Program-made: the position numbers and the translations under genes
The notes under the pieces: model-generated
What the model was told of the DNA's origin: nothing
Databases searched by the model: none
Seen by the model: the letters and a program-made list of their open reading frames with translations, nothing else
Part shown: positions 3,811 through 52,088 of the stretch, piece after piece
How positions within the stretch are numbered: position 1 is the stretch's first letter
Layout: each line of letters opens with the position of its first letter
From: Escherichia phage Skure
Sequence record: MK672798.1
Length of the DNA: 59,463 bases
Direction: 5' to 3' (one strand)

Positions 3811-4683
3811 ATGAAAAAGAGTTCTGTAGCTATTAGTGTTGGTATGGCTTTAATTAATCCACGCGCTCGCGGTGAAGGTGATGTGGAACTGGAATACGAA
3901 TATGCATCTGCGGAAGAGATCCCGGCAGAGTTTGCAACTCTTTACGCAGAGCAGGGCGGTAAATACGTTCTTGCAAAAGTTAAAGGTGTAGCCCCTGCTG
4001 ATAGCGTTCGTCGTCTGGAAAGTGCATTGGCAAAAGAACGTAACGACCATCGTCAGGTGAAGCAACAGATTAGCGCACTTGGGCGTCCGGTTGAAGAAGT
4101 CCTTGCGGACCTTGATCGTATCCCACAACTGGAAGCTGCCGCTAACGGTAAAGGTACTCCGGAAGACATCGAAAAGATGGTTAAAGCTCGTCTTGCTCCG
4201 CTCGAGCGTCAATTGCAAACTGTAGCAGCTGAACGCGATTCCGTTAAGCAGGAAATTGAAGGCTACCGCACTCGCGAAACTAAAGCGAAAATTAAAGACG
4301 CAGTTATTGCCGCTGCATCCGGTGCTAAGCTGCGTCCGTCTGCTATCGAAGATGCGGTGACTTATGCACAGTTGCAAATGACCGTCGACGAGAACGGCAA
4401 TGTGGTTACGAAAGATGGGGCGGGTGTAACTCCATACCTAACCCCAGCGGATTGGCTTAACGAGATCCTCCCGAAACGTCCTCACTGGGTTGAGGGTTCT
4501 GCTGGTGGCGGTGCATCTGGTCCGGGCGCTGGCGGTCATCACGGTGAAGACCCATACAGTCACGACGGTTGGAACATCTCTAAGCAGATGAATCTCTGGA
4601 AAACTAATCAATCTTTAGCTAAACGCTTAGCTGAAAAGAATGGCGTAGATCCGCTGAAGCCTGTACGTCCTGCTAAGAAATAA
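3811..4683 (+). CDS. capsid scaffolding protein (putative)
   Basis: 290 aa, charged helical protein between portal and major capsid gene; GGAG RBS. Confidence 0.5.
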   Translation: MKKSSVAISVGMALINPRARGEGDVELEYEYASAEEIPAEFATLYAEQGGKYVLAKVKGVAPADSVRRLESALAKERNDHRQVKQQISALGRPVEEVLADLDRIPQLEAAANGKGTPEDIEKMVKARLAPLERQLQTVAAERDSVKQEIEGYRTRETKAKIKDAVIAAASGAKLRPSAIEDAVTYAQLQMTVDENGNVVTKDGAGVTPYLTPADWLNEILPKRPHWVEGSAGGGASGPGAGGHHGEDPYSHDGWNISKQMNLWKTNQSLAKRLAEKNGVDPLKPVRPAKK

Positions 4684-21066: not shown

Positions 21067-21774
21067 ATGTCTGACATGACTCTTTTACCTACTAATCTCG
21101 GTGGCGACGGTTTCGGTGGTGAAGCTGGTGCGGCTGGTATCGGTGGCGCGATCGGTGGCTTAATTGGTTCCTGGATCGGTAATGGTTGGGGTGGCAATGG
21201 TGGTTGGGGTGGTCGCGGTAACTTCGCTGGTCCGGTAGAAGTGCAAGCTTCTGTTGACACCAACGCAATTCTGCAAGCTATCAACAACGGTACTCTTCAG
21301 ACCATTCAGGGGTAGAACGGTACTAACCTGACTGTTGAGCGCTCCGCTGCTTCTACCTATAACGGTATTACTCAGCAGAACACTCAAAACCTGCTGGCTT
21401 CCGTTCAGGGCTTTGCTGGTCTGAACACGCAAATCCAGGGCGGCACCAGCCAAGTGCTCGCGGCTCTGTGTAACAACGAAGCAGCTAACATTACCCGCTC
21501 CTTCCAGGCTCAGTTAGAAGCTCAGAAGTGTTGCTGCGAAACCAACCTGAACATCGAGCGTCAAGCAGAAGCTACTCGTGCTCTCCTGCGCGATCAGCAC
21601 GCACAAGCGCAAGCTGTTCTGATCTGTGACCTGAAGTCCCAGTTGCAGGAAGCTCGCTTTGCAAACTCTCAGTTGGCGCAGACGGCTGGCCTTACCTGTA
21701 AAATCAATCAGGTTGAGCAGTTAGTTAACTTTAAACTGCCAACTCCTCCAACTCCTCCGACTGGCTGCTGCTAA
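21067..21774 (+). CDS. Gly-rich N-terminus / Cys-containing C-terminus protein interrupted by in-frame TAG at 21313-21315
   Basis: ATG 21067 with GGAG RBS; same frame open on both sides of the TAG; coding-like composition continues 46 codons to the annotated downstream ORF 21454-21774. Confidence 0.4.
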
Positions 21775-32787: not shown

Positions 32788-32983
32788 CTTTAATATAACA
32801 AGGGTTGATTGTTACATTTGACATTACAATTGGATGATTACGTGCTCCAATTGTACTAACGTGATTAATATCTAATTCTACATGCACACCCTGCATAGTA
32901 GCATGGGCAATTGCAGAATTAAGTTTTTCTACCAGCTCAGTAATCATTTCCTGATGCTGTTTTGCTTCTTCTAAAGTGATCAT
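32771..32983 (-). CDS. hypothetical small protein inside deazaguanine cluster
   Basis: 70 aa; stop overlaps next start. Confidence 0.35.
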   Translation of the reverse strand: MITLEEAKQHQEMITELVEKLNSAIAHATMQGVHVELDINHVSTIGARNHPIVMSNVTINPCYIKGVENE

Positions 32984-33690
32984 TATTCCACTCCGATATA
33001 TTTGTGAACCTGAAGCTGCAACGTGTAACCGTGTTTCATACAGCTTTGGACAACGGCTTGGATATTACTGTGGTTAAGGTCTTCATCCTGCTCGTCCATT
33101 GGCTGTAAATATATCTTACCCTTGAACCCCTTCGGAGGTCTAGCGATAAATGGCGTAGCTTGATGATCTAATGCTTGAAGAGGTAAACCATCTTCCACGT
33201 TTACACAGCACGCTTTAAGTACATATTTAAATGCATTAGCGCGGCGCAGCACAGAAGGATGAATCTTTGAGGTCTTAGGACTACATACAATCACAGGTAA
33301 CTGGGAAAAGTTCTTAGGTAAAGGCATAGACCCATTAGTTTCAATTTGCACCAAATAGCCGCGCGATAACAGTTGTTCAATAAACGGGTTAATTTGCTGA
33401 CGGAACGGTTCACCCCCAGTGATAACCACAAGTGAGGTGCTATTGCCGGATTCCAGCTTACGGCTTTCGATTAAACGCATAATATCGACAATATGATAAA
33501 GACTACGACCAACAGTATAATCCGTATCACAGCCAGGACATTGCAGGTTGCACCCAGCAAGACGCACAAATACAGCAGGTTGGCCGCAGAATGGACCTTC
33601 ACCCTGAATGGTAGAGAATACCGAATGCACGTCTAAATACATATCGTTTTCTTTAGAACGGGGCTCGGGAGCTTGTTGATTAATATTCAT
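32983..33690 (-). CDS. queE: 7-carboxy-7-deazaguanine synthase (radical SAM)
   Basis: 235 aa; LAGCNLQCPGCDTDYT cluster-binding motif typical of QueE. Confidence 0.85.
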   Translation of the reverse strand: MNINQQAPEPRSKENDMYLDVHSVFSTIQGEGPFCGQPAVFVRLAGCNLQCPGCDTDYTVGRSLYHIVDIMRLIESRKLESGNSTSLVVITGGEPFRQQINPFIEQLLSRGYLVQIETNGSMPLPKNFSQLPVIVCSPKTSKIHPSVLRRANAFKYVLKACCVNVEDGLPLQALDHQATPFIARPPKGFKGKIYLQPMDEQDEDLNHSNIQAVVQSCMKHGYTLQLQVHKYIGVE

Positions 33691-33699
33691 CTTAAATCC

Positions 33700-33735
33700 T
33701 CTAGTGAAAAAGAAAGCGCCTCATTGGGCGCTTTC
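33700..33735 (-). terminator. rho-independent terminator (- strand) downstream of the Ala-rich protein gene
   Basis: Plus-strand GAAAGCGCC-tcattg-GGCGCTTTC; on - strand followed by TTTTTCAC. Confidence 0.5.
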
Positions 33736-33759
33736 ATTATAACGTGATATGTTTTGATA

Positions 33760-34563
33760 TTACAAGCCGTTCAGGGCTTCCGGTACTGGCATAGGTACGC
33801 GACCAGTCACACCATTAAACTTCTTCCAACGTGCATACTGAGTTTTAACAGTATCTTCGTTCAGACCGTGACGACCTGCCAGATTCAGAACATAAGAGAT
33901 CGGAGCAGGCTGACCCAGCGTAGCGCTAATCTGGTCCATCAGAGCCCAGGCACGACCGCAGGAAGTTTCCGGTTGCGGACGACGAACACCATTCTGTTCA
34001 GGCATACGGTTCGCTTCTTTCGCTTTTTCACGTTCAGCTTTTTCGCGGGCTTTTTCAGCAGCCTTTTCAGCCTGTTTAGCAGCGCGGATCTTGTCTTTGA
34101 AGCCTTTGATAGACGAATCCAGTTCGTCGACCATGCTCTGAGCAGCAGTTACTGCACCGGACAGATCTTCACCTTTGGATTTTTTAACAACTGCTTTCAG
34201 ATCTTTCAGAGCATTCTTTAAATGCTTCAGCTGTTCGGAACCCTTAGATTCTGCTTCCGTAATCTGTTCAACAGTGCTTTCATCGGTAATACCGGATAAA
34301 GCAAACTTCACGGTTTCAACTGCCTGGGAAAGAGCGGTAAATTTATTTTCCGCTTCAGTACGAATTTCAGCTTGTTTCTTTTCAGCGGCAGCTTTTTTCT
34401 CTGCTTCTTTTTTCTCTTTTGCTACGCGTGCAGCTTCAGCGGCAGCGGCTTTTTTAGCTTCTGCGTCGTTAGCAGTAGCTTCTTTCTTTGCAGGCTTAGC
34501 AGATTTTGCAGCGGCAGCAGCGGCTGCGGCAGCAGCGGCTTTCTTATCTTCAATATTACTCAT
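33760..34563 (-). CDS. Ala/Lys/Glu-rich protein with poly-Ala tract and conserved C-terminal domain (function unknown)
   Basis: Start at ATG 34563 (GGAG RBS) rather than GTG 34572; 12-residue poly-Ala; C-terminus ...QYARWKKFNG paralogous to the protein at 50611-51225. Confidence 0.5.
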   Translation of the reverse strand: MSNIEDKKAAAAAAAAAAAKSAKPAKKEATANDAEAKKAAAAEAARVAKEKKEAEKKAAAEKKQAEIRTEAENKFTALSQAVETVKFALSGITDESTVEQITEAESKGSEQLKHLKNALKDLKAVVKKSKGEDLSGAVTAAQSMVDELDSSIKGFKDKIRAAKQAEKAAEKAREKAEREKAKEANRMPEQNGVRRPQPETSCGRAWALMDQISATLGQPAPISYVLNLAGRHGLNEDTVKTQYARWKKFNGVTGRVPMPVPEALNGL

Positions 34564-34690: not shown

Positions 34691-35185
34691 TTAGCTCTTC
34701 GCACCTCTGCCCGGTGTCCATGCTGCTTGCAATGCGGGTCGCTCACAAATGACCCTGGCACCGGAAATAATACTACCCTCCCGTTCAGCATCGTATTTGA
34801 CACGGGCAGGTTTCCAAAGTCCTTCATCCATTGACGGAACGTATTGCCCAATTTGAGGTGAGCAAAAGCCTTGGATATCGTATTCCACACAGAATTCGGC
34901 TTGTGCGCTAATTTGGGTGTGATCCAGGATTGTTTCTGGAAGTTGCGTAAAGTAATCAGACAAAATGCGCTCAACGATTTCCCGTTCATATGGTGCAGCT
35001 CCTAAGTTTTCTGTCAGGTTAATATAAAGCATTTGAAGATCAACATCTTCAAGATCTTTTAAATCGTTTACTGGTGTTACCAGTGTTGACTCCGGACAAC
35101 AGATAATTCCAAGTTGGTGTAGTGTCAACCAATTGGGATGTTTTGCCAAGAGTTCAAATTTATCTGTATCAATTAGGACGTACAT
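34691..35185 (-). CDS. hypothetical protein
   Basis: 164 aa ORF. Confidence 0.45.
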   Translation of the reverse strand: MYVLIDTDKFELLAKHPNWLTLHQLGIICCPESTLVTPVNDLKDLEDVDLQMLYINLTENLGAAPYEREIVERILSDYFTQLPETILDHTQISAQAEFCVEYDIQGFCSPQIGQYVPSMDEGLWKPARVKYDAEREGSIISGARVICERPALQAAWTPGRGAKS

Positions 35186-38196: not shown

Positions 38197-39081
38197 TTAC
38201 TGCTGCCACGGCGGGACTGCTGCTTGTGCCGGATGCGGTTCAGCTTGCTGCTGCGGCTGAGCTTGCTGCTGAGGTGCTGCTGCCTGGCCCGGCTGTGCTA
38301 CCTGCTGCGTCCACGGCTGCTGAGCTGCTTCCGGTGCTACTGGCTGTTGTACCGGAGCTTGCTGCACTGGCTGCTGTGGTGCTGCGTTTTGAGCAGGATT
38401 ATCCCACGGCTGCGGTGCGGCATTCTGCCACGGTTGTGCTGCTGCGCCCTGCTGTGGTGCTGGTTGCTGCACAGGCTGCTGAACTGGTTGCTGTTGCTGC
38501 ACCGGAGCTTGCTGCTGTACAGGCGCTTGCTGTTGCTGTGCAAACGGGTTAGCTGCTGGTTGCTGAGGTGCTGCGCCCGGGAAAGCTGGCTGCTGTGCTG
38601 GCGCACCTGCACCGAACGGGTTAGCTACTGCCGCTTGAGCACCCATTGCTGGAGCACCTGCTTCTTTTTCTGCATACTTAACCGGATCGTTGATGTTAGC
38701 ATAACCGTTAGGCTCGTTGCTGTCTTCATAACCTTCCTGAGAACGAACTTTCAGACGCAGGTTCAGCGGAATGTTATGCAGTTGAGCAGGAGTATCCCAG
38801 CGAATTACGCCAACCGCATGGGAAAGCGCGCCCAGTTGCTCGTATGCAATACGCACAGTATCTTCGTTGTCGTTGATAACGTTGTAACGAGCAAAGATTT
38901 TACGGCCTTTAGCAAAACCATCAATAATGCTAAACGTTACCTGGATCGCCATACCGCCATTTTTGGTCGGTTTAAATTCAGATGCTTCAATTACTGCTTT
39001 ATACCAACCTTTCGGCAATGCGCCGTAAGAAGGTGCTTGATAGCTGCTCGCGTCAAAGTGGAAATTAGTTGGCATAGTCAT
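38197..39081 (-). CDS. putative ssDNA-binding protein with long Gln/Pro/Ala-rich low-complexity C-terminal tail
   Basis: 294 aa; globular N-terminal half then QQPV/QQAP repeats; position between Sak4-like ATPase and nuclease. Confidence 0.4.
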   Translation of the reverse strand: MTMPTNFHFDASSYQAPSYGALPKGWYKAVIEASEFKPTKNGGMAIQVTFSIIDGFAKGRKIFARYNVINDNEDTVRIAYEQLGALSHAVGVIRWDTPAQLHNIPLNLRLKVRSQEGYEDSNEPNGYANINDPVKYAEKEAGAPAMGAQAAVANPFGAGAPAQQPAFPGAAPQQPAANPFAQQQQAPVQQQAPVQQQQPVQQPVQQPAPQQGAAAQPWQNAAPQPWDNPAQNAAPQQPVQQAPVQQPVAPEAAQQPWTQQVAQPGQAAAPQQQAQPQQQAEPHPAQAAVPPWQQ

Positions 39082-41735: not shown

Positions 41736-42527
41736 TTACAGTTTGTCTTTGAACTCTTCGATATATTGCTCGATCGGATACTGCTTACGCTTGAAACGAT
41801 CAAACAAGATTTTAGCAGATTCTACGTCTTCGTCGCTCTCTTTACTTGCGCCCGGTGCCATAAAATCACGCCATGTAAAACCGTTCAGATTATGCATCTT
41901 AGCGATGTGTTTATTGTAACGACTTTCCCAGTCCACGCGCGGACCTTCCATCTTGCGCAAACCGCGTCCAAGAACTTGCACATATACATCTTTCTGACGT
42001 TGTACAGCTTCACCATTATAAGGTCCGGTTTTAAACTCAACAACACTACCGTTAAGATCTGCACCATCCGCAAAGTTGTGTAGCATAGTTTCAATGACGT
42101 CATTCAATGTTGGAACCGTCACTTTGCCCTGGGCAATACCTGCCAAATAACCGACGTTTTCTTCACCGTACAACTCGATCAGTTCTTTCTTGGTCGCTTC
42201 TGCTTCTTTGTTTGCGGACAAAGCCAACATCTGTTGTTCGAACATGTGCTCCTGTTCCAGGAAGTGCGTATATCGCTCTTCATCCACTTTACAGACAATC
42301 CATTTGTATTCAACATCCTTGCTGAAGTCCGGATACTGATCTACTTCTACTACTTCCGTAGTAAAGAACTTGCCGTTATATTGAATAACAACTGTATCGC
42401 CCGGCTGCAATTCGTCACTTTCCAGAGCACGGTAGGTATAAAGACGACCACCTGCTTCAAACTTAACTTTGACAGTTACAACGCCTTTTAACAGAGCATG
42501 ATAAGCTTTCTGAAATTCTTTACGCAT
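41736..42527 (-). CDS. hypothetical protein
   Basis: 263 aa ORF. Confidence 0.5.
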   Translation of the reverse strand: MRKEFQKAYHALLKGVVTVKVKFEAGGRLYTYRALESDELQPGDTVVIQYNGKFFTTEVVEVDQYPDFSKDVEYKWIVCKVDEERYTHFLEQEHMFEQQMLALSANKEAEATKKELIELYGEENVGYLAGIAQGKVTVPTLNDVIETMLHNFADGADLNGSVVEFKTGPYNGEAVQRQKDVYVQVLGRGLRKMEGPRVDWESRYNKHIAKMHNLNGFTWRDFMAPGASKESDEDVESAKILFDRFKRKQYPIEQYIEEFKDKL

Positions 42528-46297: not shown

Positions 46298-46326
46298 AAA
46301 GGGCCGAAAGGCCCTTTATTTATTTG
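46298..46326. terminator. bidirectional terminator between primase gene (-) and small + strand gene
   Basis: AAAGGGCC-gaaa-GGCCCTTT followed by ATTTATTT on + strand. Confidence 0.6.
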
Positions 46327-48659
46327 CTTAAGTCCTTGAAAACACTCTCAATTGACTCGTCTATATACCATCCCAATCCCCTGAAATTACGCTTCAACGC
46401 ATCTTCACGCGTGACTGGAACGAGCGCACCCATGTCTACAAGTTGCTTGATGGTAAGGTCTGTTGCAGTACCTGCTCCCATCCTGTGATTCTTGAATGCT
46501 GCTAGACCGTAGGTTCTGCGTGTGATAGTTGCCTTTGGAATAATACCGTCAACGCGCAGCTCCTTACGATCACATGCAATCTTACCGCCAAGATAATCTT
46601 TGCAGACCTGACAGATAGCCTTCACACGTGTTTCGTCATCACCGCCAATAGTACCTTTTTCCCATGCGTTGATCATGATGTCTTGTCCATGCGTAACAAA
46701 ATCTACCGCCCATTGCATGTGGTTTGGTTGCACCACAGGATTGATCCAGTTTTCCCCCACCGCTAACAGAGACGCAAGACGCAGAGCTTTAAGGTGAGCA
46801 CGGTTCCACGGCTGACGGATTGCTTCGTCTTTGGTTGCGTTAATGTGTTCATCACATAACAGGTTAAACTCCCGTTCAATCCTTTCAGCTTCAGGACTTA
46901 ACTGGACTGTGACAGTTTGAAACTTCGCCATTGTTACTAAGGTGTGGTTAACAAGATGGCACACCATGTCCTTTAACTGCTGGGGCATTATAATCTCAGG
47001 GTTTTCGTTTGCAGGAACTCGATCTCCTTCATATTGCACAATGTGGAAACGGGACAAGAAACCGTCTTCCATCATTTCACGAGTTAATGCTTCAAAGAAA
47101 GTGTCCGGTGTTGTTTCTCCCAGCACGCTGAACGCCACCCCTTCCATTGTTTTGGTATTATTAGCCTTATCAGAATATCCAATACCGCCAACAACATCCA
47201 TCGCACCAGATTTTTGATACACATCTGTGATAGTTTGCTTCAGGGTATAGTTTGCAGTGCCAGGCTGAGCTGTCGCCATACCTTTAATGGTTTTACCAAA
47301 CTCACCGTTAATATTCACAAACGAAGTATGATCCGCAAAACTTTTACGCAAGGCAGGACCGGAAGCATAGTTAGTCATATCTACAAATTCATGCACTTGC
47401 GGTAATTGCTCGCCTACTTGCTTACAGATATAACTAGGCCCAGCGTGAAGCATTTCTTTACCCACACCAGATCGGGCAATAAGGACAAAGTAACCGTTCA
47501 GCCCTGTGTTGGTGATAGTATTCCATACCTTACCGCATACGCCGGACAAGAATGCTAACGATGCAGTGATTGCAATTTCTTTCACCGGACGCTGCGATGC
47601 TTTGTAGATATACTTCGCAAGCTCACCAGCAAGACCCGGCGGCCATTCAATAGCTGTTGCATCAATGGACGTGCTTTCTGCTACTACTATTTCACCGGAC
47701 GGGCTGACTGTGGTTACAGGCATTTCCGTTACCTGCTGCATTGTGCTGTGTGCGGCTTGCATACGGGCAGCGTAATCCCGCGCCAGCGCCGCTACGTTTT
47801 CCTGGGCAATGCGCTCACGTTCCATGCGACCGCGACACATACGCAAGCAACGGTCAATATGAACATTGTTCTTATTAGCCTTCTCACGTTTGCCCAGTGC
47901 ACTATAACGGAACAGACGACGACATTGCTCATTACTTTCCGTGTAGAATGCATACATAGAAATAAGGGCAAGGTCTGCTTCAGACTGGGAAGGGAATCCC
48001 ATTTCAACCCATTCACCGTTAAATAACCGTGCATACTTATCGCCGTTGTCTGCTTCAAGTGCACGCTGATGAATAGTTGCATCATCTTCTACCGGATCTT
48101 TTTCTACCAGTTCAATTTCATATGTCTTGCGCTGAAGATCAATTTCATTCACAAGCATAGTAAGGTAATGATCACGTTCTGCAACTGGTTTGTTGTAAAC
48201 GGGATTGCCCGTGCAGATAATAAAACGCTCCTGACTATAAACCTCGACACCATCACGTCGACGACCTTTACCGATGTTACCTCTTAACCACAGGTGAACA
48301 CCCAAGCCTGAGCGACTCACTTCGGTGTAAGTATCGAACGCAGTCATGATCTGTTCGAAGCGGCGCAACTGCTCCGGCGTCGTGTGCTTCTTGGGGTCCG
48401 GTTCATTGGTTGCATTCTTCACATCCAGGTCGATGCAGGTGAACGGGTCTTGTGCAGTAAGCACAAAGCCAATATAAGGTTTATTGAAATGAGCAGCACA
48501 ACCTTTGGCAGCTTCAAACGTCATAAGCATATCCGGATCGGTAACGTCCGCCGCCATCAAACGTCCAATATCGTTATCCCATACGAGCGGCTTTTTATCC
48601 GCATCGGCGACCGCCCATTGTGGGAAAGCTTTAATTTCAGCGGGAAACAGTTCCATCAT
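46320..48659 (-). CDS. DNA primase / replication initiation protein (primase-polymerase-like N-terminal region)
   Basis: 779 aa; SRSGLGVHLW resembles the primase-polymerase active-site region; ARSGVGKE nucleotide-binding-like segment; next to candidate origin. Confidence 0.45.
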   Translation of the reverse strand: MMELFPAEIKAFPQWAVADADKKPLVWDNDIGRLMAADVTDPDMLMTFEAAKGCAAHFNKPYIGFVLTAQDPFTCIDLDVKNATNEPDPKKHTTPEQLRRFEQIMTAFDTYTEVSRSGLGVHLWLRGNIGKGRRRDGVEVYSQERFIICTGNPVYNKPVAERDHYLTMLVNEIDLQRKTYEIELVEKDPVEDDATIHQRALEADNGDKYARLFNGEWVEMGFPSQSEADLALISMYAFYTESNEQCRRLFRYSALGKREKANKNNVHIDRCLRMCRGRMERERIAQENVAALARDYAARMQAAHSTMQQVTEMPVTTVSPSGEIVVAESTSIDATAIEWPPGLAGELAKYIYKASQRPVKEIAITASLAFLSGVCGKVWNTITNTGLNGYFVLIARSGVGKEMLHAGPSYICKQVGEQLPQVHEFVDMTNYASGPALRKSFADHTSFVNINGEFGKTIKGMATAQPGTANYTLKQTITDVYQKSGAMDVVGGIGYSDKANNTKTMEGVAFSVLGETTPDTFFEALTREMMEDGFLSRFHIVQYEGDRVPANENPEIIMPQQLKDMVCHLVNHTLVTMAKFQTVTVQLSPEAERIEREFNLLCDEHINATKDEAIRQPWNRAHLKALRLASLLAVGENWINPVVQPNHMQWAVDFVTHGQDIMINAWEKGTIGGDDETRVKAICQVCKDYLGGKIACDRKELRVDGIIPKATITRRTYGLAAFKNHRMGAGTATDLTIKQLVDMGALVPVTREDALKRNFRGLGWYIDESIESVFKDLSK

Positions 48660-49217: not shown

Positions 49218-49404
49218 CCCGGCCAGCGTGCAACATTAAGACAGGTTCTGCAACTGCACGAACATAGACATACACGTTAGCAATTTTAACTTCGCCCGGC
49301 AGCTTACCGCGAAGCGAACATAATTTGCGACGACTAAGACCGAAGCGGTTTTCAATTTCTGATGTGGTTATGTATTTAAGATCAAATTCTTTTTGACAGT
49401 CCAT
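49189..49404 (-). CDS. small protein with HTH-like segment
   Basis: 71 aa; AGGAGG RBS; ITTSEIENRFGLSRRKL resembles a helix-turn-helix; C-terminal part overlaps the next ORF out of frame. Confidence 0.35.
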   Translation of the reverse strand: MDCQKEFDLKYITTSEIENRFGLSRRKLCSLRGKLPGEVKIANVYVYVRAVAEPVLMLHAGRVVPEVGRGS

Positions 49405-49560
49405 ACCTACCTCCTAACAGCACTATACACAATCCATAGTAAGCCAGCCACAATTATTCCACCTGAAGTTATGATGTGAGCGGATTGTTAACATATAACC
49501 ACATGTGATGGAAAGTTTTGGGTAGGAATAGTTGGTGCTCCGCAGTTTGCACAATGTGAC

Positions 49561-49600
49561 GGAAAGTTTTGTGAGTTTTGCAAAGTTTTGCGAAGTTTTG
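49561..49600. repeat. four tandem (A)AGTTTTG repeats at about 10-bp spacing
   Basis: ggaaagttttg tgagttttg caaagttttg cgaagttttg; a fifth copy at 49513-49520. Confidence 0.6.
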
Positions 49601-50075
49601 TGGTGCCACTGTTGCTAAAAACTTTAATAAAAACAATAAGTTGGTGCAGTAAGTTTTTGCGTTTTGGGGTAAAACGCATTTTTTACCCTAATACCCTAAT
49701 CCCGACTGTTAGTAAAAAACGTATATAAATCAATAAGATAGATACTAAATGAATAGTGAATGGAATGGGTAGAAATCCAAATGATGGAAGTGGAATAAAT
49801 TATTCCTACTTGATGGAATAATGGAATCGGTACTCTGGAGCGCAAAAACCTAAAACTTTCAGTCAACAGACTAAAAACGGATAGAAACTAAAAGTTAATA
49901 AGTAATACCATAAATATATATAAAATAAGGATTTATTAGTAATGTATATAGTACCTATTGGTATTTATTTGAATGTTTTTGGGTCTGCAATAAAAAGTCG
50001 CAAAACTCACAAAAAGTGAAAGAATACAATTCGTGACAGGATTGTTAATGGAATATGGTGTATGGATATACAGTA

Positions 50076-50113
50076 TTATTCCAGATTCCGGAATAATTGG
50101 AATAATGGAATAA
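50076..50113. repeat. GGAATAA repeat cluster with embedded 10-bp palindrome ATTCCGGAAT
   Basis: TTATTCC-agattcc-GGAATAA-tt-GGAATAA-t-GGAATAA; related palindrome GGAATAA-a-TTATTCC at 49792-49806. Confidence 0.6.
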
Positions 50114-50233
50114 ATTATTGAACTATTGTGGTCGGAAGGTATATCAAGCTATAATGCGCTTAATCGCGGGATATTGGAGGAGGACTTTATTGCGCGGTTA
50201 ACCGGACCAGTAGGAGGGCTGGCCCGGAGTAGT

Positions 50234-50566
50234 TTAGAGCTGTACAGGTATGAAGTGGGCTAATGTGTCGTCGGACATGATACCCGACAATTTTTCGCTT
50301 ACCCATTCGGACCAAATGCTATCCGGTTCCTGGCGGTGCACAAACCAGATTTCGGAAGTGCCTTCTTTGCGCATCGGCTGCACTTCTACAAGGAACTTGT
50401 CCTGCATGAGGCGGGTGAAGCAGACGCTGGTCATTGGAACCGGCTTTTCGTGTTTATTGTAATAAGGAGTCAGTAATTTATTTCCGAAGTTGGCAACTTC
50501 ATAAACTGTTCCTTTGCGAAGCCCTCTGATGTCTGTGTAAGAGCGGATAAATGTTCTCATGTTCAC
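50234..50566 (-). CDS. hypothetical protein
   Basis: 110 aa ORF, first gene downstream (on - strand) of the iteron region. Confidence 0.45.
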   Translation of the reverse strand: MNMRTFIRSYTDIRGLRKGTVYEVANFGNKLLTPYYNKHEKPVPMTSVCFTRLMQDKFLVEVQPMRKEGTSEIWFVHRQEPDSIWSEWVSEKLSGIMSDDTLAHFIPVQL

Positions 50567-50610
50567 TCCTAGGGCTCCCGCAGAAGCCCGTTGGTTGATG
50601 TGGTTATAGA

Positions 50611-51225
50611 TTATGCGTCCAGTCCGTTATATTTGCGCCAGGCGTAGAACTGAATGGCGACTGTTGTCCCGTTGTGAGAAGGCATTGCCGCTTTCATTTC
50701 TTTCAGCTCCGGCGTGCGGCCCAGTTTGGCTAAAAGTTTGTCGCCCATTGCCCACACTTCGGCGGTTTTTCCTTTCAGAGGCTTGCGAGCGCCATTTTTG
50801 AAATCACAGCGAGCAGCTTTTGCATCCTGTTTTGGCGCAGCAGCTTTTGGCTCTTCAATTTTGATTTCAGAAACCTGCGTGGCAGCTTTTGCATGTTTCA
50901 TATCTTTCTCTTCCTCCTGCTCCAGAGCTTCGAGGCAGCTTTTGACGATTTCCGGATTTACCATCGGGCGCAGTACCGAGACGCTGGCAGCTGGCGCGGC
51001 GGTTGGTGCTGGGACTTTCTGCTCCGGTTGTTGCGCTTTTTTATGGTCGCGCAGTACCTGAAGGACTTCCTTCTCGACGATGTAAAAACCGATCTCGTCC
51101 TGATGGATAAGTTGTTCGTGTGCATCGCGTGCAACCTGGCCCCAACGGGTCTTAAGGGCGCGGCGTGCATTCGTTTTCATGGTGTAACGCATTTTGTCCT
51201 GTTCGCGGTGAGTTACTTTAGACAT
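50611..51225 (-). CDS. hypothetical protein with C-terminal domain paralogous to the 33760-34563 protein
   Basis: Start at internal ATG (MSKVTHREQ) with AAGGAG RBS; C-terminus ...VAIQFYAWRKYNG. Confidence 0.45.
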   Translation of the reverse strand: MSKVTHREQDKMRYTMKTNARRALKTRWGQVARDAHEQLIHQDEIGFYIVEKEVLQVLRDHKKAQQPEQKVPAPTAAPAASVSVLRPMVNPEIVKSCLEALEQEEEKDMKHAKAATQVSEIKIEEPKAAAPKQDAKAARCDFKNGARKPLKGKTAEVWAMGDKLLAKLGRTPELKEMKAAMPSHNGTTVAIQFYAWRKYNGLDA

Positions 51226-51298
51226 GGTATAGCTCCTTTCATTAATATTAGTTTGCTTATTACTGCCCACCGTAATGATGAGCAGTGTATAAGAAAAC

Positions 51299-51547
51299 TT
51301 ACTGCACGATTGCTACGAAATCGACGGTTGCGATATCCATACTTGCGAAAGCAACAATGCTGTAGTCGGTGTCGTTGTCCGCGTTAAAAGCTTTGAGGAA
51401 CTGCTGTACTGCTGCTTTATGGTTAAGCGTTACGTCGATAGCATAGTCCCAGCTATAGACTTTGCGCTTGCCAAAACCTTTAACTGCAATGCGAGCGCTT
51501 TTAGTGTTGGTCGGTGCCAAAAATTTGGTGACGATAGAAGTAGCCAT
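51299..51547 (-). CDS. hypothetical protein
   Basis: 82 aa ORF. Confidence 0.4.
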   Translation of the reverse strand: MATSIVTKFLAPTNTKSARIAVKGFGKRKVYSWDYAIDVTLNHKAAVQQFLKAFNADNDTDYSIVAFASMDIATVDFVAIVQ

Positions 51548-51615
51548 GATGTAATCCTCGTTTTGTTTAAGTTGACTTATTATTGCCCAGTCAGATCAAC
51601 TAGGCAAGATATAAA

Positions 51616-51768
51616 TCACTTAATTTGGACTAAATCGTATTCCTTGTAGATATCGCTAATGTACATGTCGAACTGTCCCATTAAGAAGATTTCAGCCTCC
51701 TCCCAGCTTGGGGCAGATACATAACCAGCTATTTTACCGGACGCGAGTTCCACTAATTTGAATTCCAT
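51616..51768 (-). CDS. hypothetical small protein, first gene of the - strand block
   Basis: Start at internal ATG (MEFKLVEL) with AAGGG RBS; about 50 aa. Confidence 0.3.
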   Translation of the reverse strand: MEFKLVELASGKIAGYVSAPSWEEAEIFLMGQFDMYISDIYKEYDLVQIK

Positions 51769-52088
51769 GATGTAACCCTTAATGTGGTTAAGCAGTATTG
51801 CTTTGTTGAAGTAATAATAGCCTTGCATCGTGATATTGAATAGGCCAAAAGTGCTATTTTGATATTGTTTTGCATCTAGTGAAAATTATGCTTGCCTTGC
51901 ATGTTTAGCACAAATGGCCTAACTAACATCACATTATCTGGAGTATTCGCACGGGCGCACACATACATATAAAGCTGCCAAAATATTTTTATAAAAAGAT
52001 GCAAAAAGGTGTAGACATATGATCGGTCTAGCACTACTATATACACATACCGCAAGGGTACTACAAATTAACTTAAAGGGTACACATT
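51769..52088. promoter_or_regulatory. divergent promoter/operator region between - strand and + strand blocks
   Basis: 320-nt AT-rich spacer; repeated motifs CCTTGCAT (51821, 51895) and TGATATTG (51831, 51860); candidate + strand promoter TAGACA-17-TACTAT at 52012-52040. Confidence 0.35.

What the first reader, a model, noticed from the sequence alone, without database searches (positions are those of the whole stretch)
33760..34563. Poly-Ala, Lys/Glu-rich protein with a C-terminal domain duplicated elsewhere in the genome
The protein has a 12-residue poly-Ala run encoded by a GCN repeat and an A/K/E-rich helical region. Its C-terminal domain (...GRAWALMDQISATLGQPAP...TQYARWKKFNG) is clearly related to the C-terminus of the protein at 50611-51225 (...AEVWAMGDKLLAKLGRTPE...QFYAWRKYNG), which also has a low-complexity basic middle region. 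Two paralogous genes with histone-like tails placed next to the modification cluster and next to the candidate origin suggest DNA-binding roles.
Basis: seen in the sequence. Interest (0 to 1): 0.45.

Follow-up and report, generated by a model that had tools for sequence, protein, structure and literature searches.

The report
Uncharacterised phage HTH-like domain, paralogous proteins
Two proteins of this Seurat-like coliphage share a small, basic, helix-turn-helix-like end domain from a large, unnamed, phage-restricted family; one of them sits immediately upstream of queE, the first gene of the 7-deazaguanine DNA-modification genes, and looks as highly expressed as the capsid protein, so it is most likely an abundant DNA-associated protein whose function nobody has tested.

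Summary
The window is a near-complete Seuratvirus genome. Protein A (33760-34563, minus strand, 267 aa) and protein B (50611-51225, minus strand, 204 aa) share a roughly 70-residue C-terminal domain. BLASTP gives E = 1e-6, a profile built without either protein hits B at 2e-12, and hhalign gives 99.7% probability.

A-type genes lie immediately upstream of queE in 79 of 80 related viral contigs. Most relatives carry a cassette: helicase, B-type paralog, gp45-like protein (with a third divergent copy of the domain), A-type paralog, queE. B-type N-termini are modular (a 'KSNAKRAA' module, or a HeH/SAP-like module, often with a zinc ribbon). B-type proteins also occur in integrase/primase islands without que genes.

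Gene A has the highest codon adaptation in the genome, or second after the major head protein when Lys, Glu and Ala codons are excluded.

The 'histone-like tail' reading is not supported, because the A/K/E region is almost neutral and helical. DNA binding is plausible but untested. Interest is moderate.

The parts
33760..34563 (-). Gene A (267 aa, homolog of Seurat gp44; phrog_11298). It comprises an N-terminal disordered tail, a three-helix bundle and a C-terminal HTH-like domain.
   Evidence: ORF list, annotation of Seurat, PHROG hit at 1e-120, AlphaFold model with pLDDT 90.
34507..34539 (-). Run of 11 alanines (GCN codons) within the low-confidence N-terminal tail.
   Evidence: Sequence and tandem repeat result. 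The run is variable or absent in orthologs. pLDDT is 56-63 for residues 1-30.
34012..34485 (-). A/K/E-rich helical region (residues 27-184), predicted as three long antiparallel helices: 27-90, 98-128 and 135-184.
   Evidence: AlphaFold pLDDT above 90. Net charge +3. Conserved only among enterobacterial relatives.
33802..34011 (-). Conserved C-terminal domain, A-type (residues 185-254). It has the arm motif 'PEQNGVRRPxP' with a beta-hairpin, then three helices ending in 'QYARWKKFNG..GR'.
   Evidence: HMM hit at 2e-36. Domain model with pLDDT 83-97. 2,137 cluster representatives at E <= 1e-3.
33712..33735 (-). Intrinsic-terminator-like hairpin between gene A and queE. A promoter-like site at 33736-33765 overlaps the end of gene A.
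   Evidence: Promoter/terminator scan. A terminator is annotated at the same place in Seurat.
34691..35185 (-). Upstream partner gene (164 aa, gp45-like, phrog_7864). This is a short form that lacks the divergent C-terminal copy of the domain carried by the ~240-aa relatives.
   Evidence: PHROG profile positions 1-163 of 242 matched. Profile hit in 62 of 80 loci, always between the two paralogs. Third domain copy shown. Natural fusions to A-type proteins: P0019, P0051, P0078, P0079, P0090, P0105, P0124, P0133.
50611..51225 (-). Gene B (204 aa, homolog of CAjan gp68; phrog_22313). It comprises an N-terminal 'KTNARRALK' module, a low-complexity linker and a C-terminal domain.
   Evidence: ORF list, annotation, PHROG hit.
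50614..50820 (-). Conserved C-terminal domain, B-type (residues 136-204).
   Evidence: HMM hit at 2e-12. hhalign 99.7% probability. pI 10.0, net charge +8.
51046..51192 (-). N-terminal module of B, 'M(K)T..NA(R/K)RA..'. The same module is found at the N-terminus of the cassette paralog in related phages and in proteins of integrative islands.
   Evidence: Sequence comparison. There is no Pfam match and phmmer found no significant match, so this rests on a shared short motif and position only.
32983..33690 (-). queE (radical SAM), the first gene of the 7-deazaguanine cluster and the invariant downstream neighbour of A-type genes.
   Evidence: Annotation. queE lies downstream in 79 of 80 loci, with a median gap of 149 bp.

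Best explanation
A and B are two members of an uncharacterised domain family found almost only in phages and phage-like elements. Its defining module is a roughly 70-residue basic domain: an N-terminal arm (G-x-R/K-R/K-P) with a beta-hairpin, followed by a three-helix HTH-like bundle whose last helix carries the conserved 'Y-A-R-W-R/K-K-F' motif.

I propose that this module binds DNA. The arm would lie in a groove and helix 3 would lie against the backbone or major groove. The variable N-terminal parts would then add other properties. In A this is a long rigid helical rod or bundle that acts as a spacer or oligomeriser. In B-type proteins it is a small N-terminal module, or a HeH/SAP-like module plus a zinc ribbon.

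On this model A is made in capsid-protein-like amounts. It acts stoichiometrically as an architectural, DNA-coating or DNA-organising protein of the replication/recombination/modification module, together with the adjacent gp45-like protein. B would be the replication-origin- or primase-associated paralog.

Shown here: the homology, the fold prediction, the charge, the architectures, the synteny and the codon bias. Inferred: DNA binding, abundance, and every functional step.
For: Homology and family size: establish the homology. There are 2,137 cluster representatives at 50% identity.

Charge: the domain is net positive in 97% of members, with a median of +4. A's domain has pI 9.85 and B's has pI 10.0.

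Domain partners typical of nucleic-acid binders: a HeH/SAP/Rho_N-like module (Rho_N E = 0.004) and CxxC...CxxC zinc ribbons in B-type paralogs. P0196 carries a precomputed Rho_N domain.

Position: A-type genes always sit inside the replication module, between the SF2 helicase and queE. B-type members sit next to DUF3987 primase genes in integrative islands and about 2 kb from the primase gene in the window.

Expression proxy: gene A has the highest CAI of 91 genes (0.56 against a median of 0.29). With Lys, Glu and Ala codons removed it ranks second (0.487), just after the major head protein (0.503). It has its own flanking terminators.

Partner: natural fusions of the gp45-like N-domain to A-type proteins, and a third domain copy on long gp45-like proteins, indicate that the cassette proteins act on one common target.
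Against: - Small three-helix winged-helix-like modules also serve as protein-protein adaptors (RPA32C, cullin WHB and RecX are among the top hits).
- CAI is only a proxy for expression, and the w-values were typed in from memory.
- A few family members start with signal-peptide-like segments (P0013, P0016, P0046, P0097). These would not fit a cytoplasmic DNA binder unless their start codons are miscalled.
- The queE adjacency cannot be separated from shared ancestry of the whole module.
Confidence: 0.45

Rival explanations
1. The shared C-terminal domain is a protein-protein docking module. It would tether several different N-terminal modules (coiled-coil rod, gp45 N-domain, HeH plus zinc ribbon) to one hub protein of the phage replisome or of the host, such as the helicase, clamp, primase, SSB or RNA polymerase. 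Any DNA contact would be made by the N-terminal HeH or zinc-ribbon parts.
Against: The domain is consistently basic, with conserved Arg/Lys in the arm and in helix 3. B-type members occur in small integrative islands that lack the phage helicase and clamp, so any hub would have to be the primase or a host protein. The very high codon adaptation of A fits a stoichiometric coat better than a hub adaptor.
Confidence: 0.2
2. A and/or B are transcription regulators of the phage programme, for example an activator of middle or late genes or a repressor of early genes. This is what the GenBank label 'transcriptional activator (FtrA domain)' suggests.
For: The domain has an HTH-like fold and a weak Sigma70_r4_2 hit (E = 0.069). 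B lies near the divergent early control region and an AT-rich repeat region. Several GenBank records carry that label.
Against: The FtrA/AraC label has no support. There is no HTH_18/AraC or DJ-1 hit at E <= 1. Capsid-like codon adaptation and 2-3 paralogs per genome are unusual for a specific regulator. No operator-like repeats were found next to gene A.
Confidence: 0.12
3. The A-type protein works with the 7-deazaguanine system. It could be a DNA-handling accessory of DpdA, playing the role that DpdB plays in bacteria, or a protein that preferentially binds or organises dPreQ0/dG+-modified phage DNA, as TF1 of phage SPO1 does for hydroxymethyluracil DNA.
For: A-type genes lie immediately upstream of queE on the same strand in 79 of 80 viral contigs and in all annotated examples, from Rhizobium to Stenotrophomonas phages. 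Phage genera that carry the domain match those that carry the close DpdA, genus by genus: Escherichia 40/40, Pseudomonas 31/32, Vibrio 23/23, Rhizobium 13/14. No DpdB-like gene is annotated in these clusters, whereas some mycobacteriophages have a ParB-like gene next to dpdA.
Against: The whole replication module is syntenic, so linkage may be inheritance only. A terminator separates A from queE. DpdA phages of other lineages (Mycobacterium, Cellulophaga, Streptococcus Dp-1) show no detectable copy. Divergent B-type members live in islands without que genes. In Synechococcus phage Yong-L2-223 the gene follows the polymerase, not queE.
Confidence: 0.1
4. A is a virion-associated or assembly protein, for example an internal DNA-condensing or scaffold-like protein. 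This would explain its capsid-like codon usage and helical A/K/E-rich composition.
For: Its CAI is comparable to the major head and scaffolding genes. Its composition is helical, like that of scaffolding proteins. GenBank records carry stray labels such as 'outer capsid protein' (CSP1C, on the gene A homolog) and 'internal head protein' (SHIN8, somewhere under the 50000-52000 match; which gene was not checked).
Against: The gene lies on the opposite strand inside the replication module, far from the head genes. A scaffolding gene already exists at 3811-4683. The virion LC-MS/MS of the related phage Vid5 lists the extra proteins found (gp07, gp10, gp99) and does not include the homolog (PMC6266253). 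The stray labels come from records with evidently unreliable annotation.
Confidence: 0.05

Closest known systems
Generic winged-helix / tri-helical HTH modules (e.g. MCM C-terminal WH 2m45, RPA32C, RecX repeats, Z-alpha, homeodomain, LexA N-domain)
   Same: Three-helix bundle of similar size and topology. A basic surface. In homeodomains, an N-terminal basic arm precedes the helices and helix 3 carries a Trp/Phe plus Arg/Lys motif.
Phage phi29 p16.7 and p6 (from my own knowledge, not tested here beyond the PDB sequence search)
   Same: They are abundant early phage proteins that organise replicating phage DNA. p16.7 has a coiled-coil followed by a small three-helix, homeodomain-like DNA-binding domain at its C-terminus.
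   Different: No sequence similarity: PDB sequence searches found nothing. A and B have no membrane anchor. The phage lineage and the replication mode are different.
Linker histone H1 / bacterial H1-like Ala-Lys-rich proteins
   Same: A small winged-helix-like globular domain combined with an Ala/Lys-rich low-complexity region. The whole protein is basic (pI 9.4).
   Different: The A/K/E region has as many Glu as needed to be almost neutral (+3 over 158 aa), and it is predicted as a folded helical bundle. There is no Linker_histone Pfam match.
Pfam HNH_repeat (PF18780) and HARE-HTH (PF05066)
   Same: They are the most recurrent weak Pfam matches to the domain: HNH_repeat in 3 of 58 members with best E = 0.0015, and HARE-HTH at E = 0.058. 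Both are small HTH-type modules attached to DNA-acting enzymes.
   Different: All scores are below the gathering thresholds (19.3 against 26 bits), and window proteins A and B themselves give no hit to these families. This is a lead only.
SPO1 TF1 (HU-type protein preferring hydroxymethyluracil DNA; from my own knowledge)
   Same: A precedent for an abundant phage-encoded DNA-binding protein in a phage whose DNA carries a modified base.
   Different: The fold is unrelated (HU/IHF), and no evidence here shows any preference for modified DNA.

Membership tests
PHROG families phrog_11298 (A), phrog_22313 (B) and the shared phrog_21588 | Significant match to the family profile | tested here: met
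   A matches phrog_11298 at 1.3e-120 and B matches phrog_22313 at 1.1e-141. Both also match phrog_21588 (7e-8 and 2e-6). All three are listed as 'unknown function'.
The unnamed domain family defined here (A-type, B-type and gp45-like C-terminal subfamilies) | Profile match across about 70 residues, with the arm motif N-G-x-+-+-P, the helix-1 Trp-x3-Asp, the G-x-P loop and the helix-3 'W-R/K-K-F/Y-x-G' motif | tested here: met
   An HMM built without A and B hits A at 2e-36 and B at 2e-12. hhalign gives 99.7% and 97.6% probability between subfamilies. Invariant Trp, Asn, Gly and Pro columns are seen.
Winged-helix / HTH DNA-binding superfold | Three-helix bundle with a helix-turn-helix, supported by a significant structural match to solved members | tested here: inconclusive
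Winged-helix / HTH DNA-binding superfold | Demonstrated nucleic-acid binding | not testable with these tools
   This needs EMSA, ChIP or a complex structure.
FtrA/AraC-type transcriptional activator (GenBank label in CAjan, SA80RD, CSP1) | AraC-type HTH (HTH_18) and a DJ-1/PfpI-like domain | tested here: not met
   No such Pfam hit even at E <= 1, and none among 138 family members.
Linker histone H1/H5 | Linker_histone globular domain plus a strongly polycationic Lys/Ala/Pro tail | tested here: not met
   No Pfam match. The tail's net charge is +3 over 158 aa, and the family median is +3.4 per 100 aa.
TolA ('membrane protein involved in colicin uptake', the JGI label on relatives) | N-terminal membrane anchor, and a TolA profile match above the cutoff | tested here: not met
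   Relatives P0012 and P0097 score 12-21 bits against TolA models whose cutoffs are 59 and 213 bits, through the A/K/E region only. A and B themselves give no TolA hit. A and B have no hydrophobic N-terminus.
Pfam HNH_repeat (PF18780) | Score above the gathering threshold (26 bits) | tested here: not met
   The best score is 19.3 bits (E = 0.0015), in 3 of 58 members. A itself gives no hit.
H-NS / xenogeneic silencer type | Histone_HNS C-terminal domain with a Q/RGR minor-groove hook, after an N-terminal coiled-coil | tested here: not met
   No Pfam or PDB sequence match. The only resemblance is architectural: a helical N-terminal part followed by a small basic C-terminal domain with a G-x-R-R-P arm.

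The most novel reading that the evidence does not exclude
The A-type protein is a dedicated partner of 7-deazaguanine DNA. It would be an abundant phage 'chromatin' protein or DpdA accessory factor that handles or recognises dPreQ0/dG+-modified DNA. This would explain why its gene is fixed directly upstream of queE in nearly every related phage contig examined and why it co-distributes with the close DpdA subfamily.
Probability: 0.1. Interest if true: 0.75.

Novelty: new variant of a known kind. Interest (0 to 1): 0.45.

Why it matters
The family is large: more than 2,000 clusters at 50% identity. It is restricted to phages and phage-like islands, and it is missing from Pfam, NCBIfam and the PDB. 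Within the supergroup of proteobacterial and cyanobacterial siphoviruses that replace guanine by 7-deazaguanines, it is a near-universal gene present in multiple copies. One copy carries the strongest expression signature in this genome.

If it binds DNA, it is a new class of abundant phage DNA-organising protein. If it is tied to DpdA or to modified DNA, it would fill the gap left by the absence of a DpdB-like partner in these phages.

For annotation, it shows that the labels 'FtrA transcriptional activator', 'plectin', 'outer capsid protein' and 'colicin-uptake membrane protein' are unfounded, and it defines a domain that could be added to the domain databases.

Tried and rejected
- Pfam, NCBIfam and PADLOC-independent annotation. 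There were no family hits for A, B, the gp45-like protein or 138 relatives. The only Pfam and NCBIfam hits for A came from composition bias (SMBP, Mitofilin, PqiB).
- PDB sequence and profile searches with A, B, A1, A3 and A7 found nothing meaningful. The 'Tet4 variant' hit is a designed repeat protein with per-domain E above 100.
- SSB hypothesis for A: rejected. The phage's SSB candidate is 38197-39081 (phrog_6015).
- Scaffolding hypothesis: a scaffolding gene already lies at 3811-4683.
- Histone-like polycationic tail: rejected on charge and predicted structure.
- Plasmid origin: there was no tblastn match in 72,556 plasmids.
- Chromosomal or prophage origin of A-type genes: only 6 loci were found in 185,579 species genomes. 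All are on MAG contigs (four of about 56 kb, the others 24-112 kb) that carry the same helicase-to-DpdA phage module.
- Literature: no paper in the held library mentions these proteins or their PHROG ids.
- Significant sequence similarity between B's N-terminal module and the cassette paralogs could not be shown (phmmer E >= 0.03). The link rests on a shared short motif and position only.

Full report
**What the window is.** Megablast places the window at 98-99% identity to Escherichia phages vB_Eco_SLUR76, Seurat and CAjan (Queuovirinae, Seuratvirus). At 59,463 bases it is essentially a whole phage genome. Structural genes lie on the plus strand. Replication, recombination and 7-deazaguanine (que/dpdA) genes lie on the minus strand.

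**The observation.** Protein A is encoded at 33760-34563 on the minus strand, starting at an ATG behind a GGAG site. It has 267 residues and corresponds to Seurat gp44, annotated 'hypothetical protein'.
- The poly-Ala run has 11 residues, not 12. It is encoded by GCN codons at 34507-34539.
- The run is not conserved. Orthologs have 10 Ala, an interrupted run, 7 Ala, or none. It lies in the only low-confidence part of the model.

Protein B is at 50611-51225 on the minus strand, has 204 residues and corresponds to CAjan gp68. The similarity of the two C-termini is real:
- BLASTP gives E = 1e-6.
- Both proteins hit phrog_21588.
- A profile made only from other family members hits A at 2e-36 and B at 2e-12 among all 658 stop-to-stop ORFs of the window, with no third copy.
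- hhalign gives 99.7% probability.

**The domain family.** An exhaustive profile search found 2,137 cluster representatives (at 50% identity) with E <= 1e-3, and 1,003 with E <= 1e-10. Nothing in Pfam, NCBIfam or the PDB sequences matches it.
- Source names are only 'hypothetical protein', or 'membrane protein involved in colicin uptake', which is a composition artefact.
- GenBank labels such as 'transcriptional activator FtrA domain', 'plectin 1' and 'outer capsid protein' have no support.
- Conserved features are an arm 'P-E-Q-N-G-V-R-R-P-x-P', a Trp-x3-Asp helix, a G-x-P loop, and a last helix 'T-x-Y-A-R-W-R/K-K-F-N-G' followed by 'G-R'.

**Predicted structure.** Full-length A, modelled with a 138-sequence alignment, has mean pLDDT 90. 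It shows three long helices (27-90, 98-128, 135-184), then a two-stranded hairpin (189-194), then three short helices (201-216, 222-231, 236-249). The domain alone gives the same fold.
- Foldseek against the PDB has no significant hit.
- The viral structure library returns only uncharacterised phage proteins.
- Weak Pfam matches recur for HNH_repeat (best E = 0.0015, in 3 of 58 members). Single matches appear for HARE-HTH and sigma region 4. All are below threshold.

**Charge.** The domain is net positive in 97% of members. A's domain has pI 9.85 and B's has pI 10.0. The A/K/E region, by contrast, is almost neutral: +3 over 158 residues in A, and a family median of +3.4 per 100 residues. B's middle region is slightly acidic. 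The 'histone-like tail' reading therefore fails, while a basic HTH-like end domain remains.

**Distribution.**
- tblastn finds the domain in 149 phage records (Escherichia, Pseudomonas, Vibrio, Rhizobium, Synechococcus and others), often twice or three times per genome.
- It finds none in 72,556 plasmids.
- The per-genus counts mirror those of the close DpdA homologs: 40/40, 31/32, 23/23, 13/14. DpdA phages of Mycobacterium, Cellulophaga and Streptococcus show no copy.
- Among 185,579 species genomes, only six loci have A-type genes. All are on MAG contigs (four of about 56 kb, the others 24-112 kb) that carry the same phage module from helicase to DpdA.

**Synteny.** In 80 IMG/VR loci, queE follows the A-type gene on the same strand in 79, with a median gap of 149 bp. 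The remaining locus ends 81 bp after the gene. The annotated genomes of Iggy, RHEph04, a Stenotrophomonas phage and Achromobacter phage ART show the same arrangement.

Most loci (57 of 80) have 2-3 domain-bearing ORFs. The typical order is helicase, B-type paralog, gp45-like gene, A-type paralog, queE.
- The gp45-like proteins (phrog_7864; profile hit in 62 of 80 loci) are about 240 aa in most phages and end in a third, divergent copy of the domain (hhalign 97.6%, E = 3e-12).
- The window's version (34691-35185, 164 aa) is a short form without that copy.
- Eight cluster representatives are natural fusions of the gp45-like N-domain to an A-type protein.
- In Seuratvirus the B-type paralog has moved 17 kb away.

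**B-type architectures.** The N-termini are modular. Some have a 'MKTYSNKSNAKRAA' module, which resembles B's 'MKTNARRALK'. Others have a HeH/SAP/Rho_N-like module (Rho_N E = 0.004). Either is often followed by a CxxC...CxxC zinc ribbon.

More divergent B-type proteins (P0226, P0229, P0234) sit in chromosomal islands that carry an integrase, an AlpA-type HTH and a DUF3987 primase, with no que genes in view. In the window, B lies about 2 kb upstream of the related primase gene (46320-48659). Between them is an AT-rich non-coding stretch (49350-50230, GC 0.29-0.37). It holds the only three copies of TGAYKGAAAGTTTT in the genome, against 0.18 expected by chance.

**Expression proxy.** I used Sharp-Li E. 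coli codon weights, typed in from memory. Gene A has the highest CAI of 91 genes (0.56 against a median of 0.29). With Lys, Glu and Ala codons removed it is second (0.487), after the major head protein gene (0.503) and ahead of the scaffolding and tail genes. The C-terminal domain alone scores 0.55. Terminator-like hairpins flank the gp45-A pair.

**Interpretation.** The best-supported reading is an abundant, DNA-associated architectural protein (A) and a replication-region paralog (B), both built on a new HTH-like DNA-binding module. I put confidence at about 0.45.

The rivals are a protein-docking module (0.2), a transcription regulator (0.12), a function tied to 7-deazaguanine DNA or DpdA (0.1) and a virion or assembly protein (0.05). 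The virion proteome of the related phage Vid5 does not list the homolog (PMC6266253). No paper in the held library deals with these proteins.

**Verdict.**
- This is a new, uncharacterised family of a known general kind (small HTH-like modules).
- Its genomic behaviour is unusually regular, and its expression signature is striking.
- Overall interest is moderate.

Noticed in passing
window 49350-50230: An AT-rich (GC 0.29-0.37) non-coding stretch lies between gene B's operon and the primase gene. It holds the genome's only three copies of TGAYKGAAAGTTTT (49506, 49557 direct; 49852-49865 inverted; 0.18 expected by chance), plus several other short direct and inverted repeats. It is a candidate origin or control region.
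   Followed up: partly
window 51299-51547 (-): An 82-aa protein of unknown function (phrog_3199) sits immediately upstream of gene B. Its codon adaptation is rank 3-4 in the genome (CAI 0.525), comparable to the head protein.
   Followed up: no
window 34691-35185 (-); loci L018-L091: The gp45-like protein is a truncated form in Seuratvirus. In most related phages it is about 240 aa and ends in a third, divergent copy of the same C-terminal domain. In eight metagenomic cluster representatives its N-domain is fused to an A-type protein. The N-domain has no Pfam or PDB relative.
   Followed up: yes
L098-L102 (metagenomic and Nitrosospira multiformis contigs): Divergent B-type family members occur in chromosomal islands with a tyrosine integrase, an AlpA-like HTH_17, a DUF3987 primase and DUF5681. 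These islands look like P4-like or satellite-like elements, and no que genes are in view.
   Followed up: partly
window 33712-33765 (-): A strong terminator-like hairpin (9 bp stem, 6 GC pairs, T-run) follows gene A, and a promoter-like TTGTAA-18-TATAAT overlaps its stop codon. Together they mark an operon boundary just before queE.
   Followed up: partly
window 38197-39081 (-): This 294-aa protein, annotated as hypothetical in Seurat, matches PHROG single-strand DNA-binding protein families (phrog_6015 at 3e-38). It sits next to the Sak4-like annealing protein gene.
   Followed up: no
window 50566-50611 versus CAjan (L002 5501-5983): CAjan carries an HNH homing endonuclease gene directly downstream of its gene B homolog. 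This window has none there, so the site is a variable insertion point among Seuratviruses.
   Followed up: no
window 41736-42527 (-) and 21454-21774 (+): Two further genes of unknown function have high codon adaptation (CAI 0.43 and 0.52).
   Followed up: no
P0013, P0016, P0046, P0097 (family members): A few family proteins begin with signal-peptide-like hydrophobic segments (for example MNKSLTLGAALTAIALAMPARA). They may reflect miscalled start codons or a membrane-anchored or secreted subgroup.
   Followed up: no
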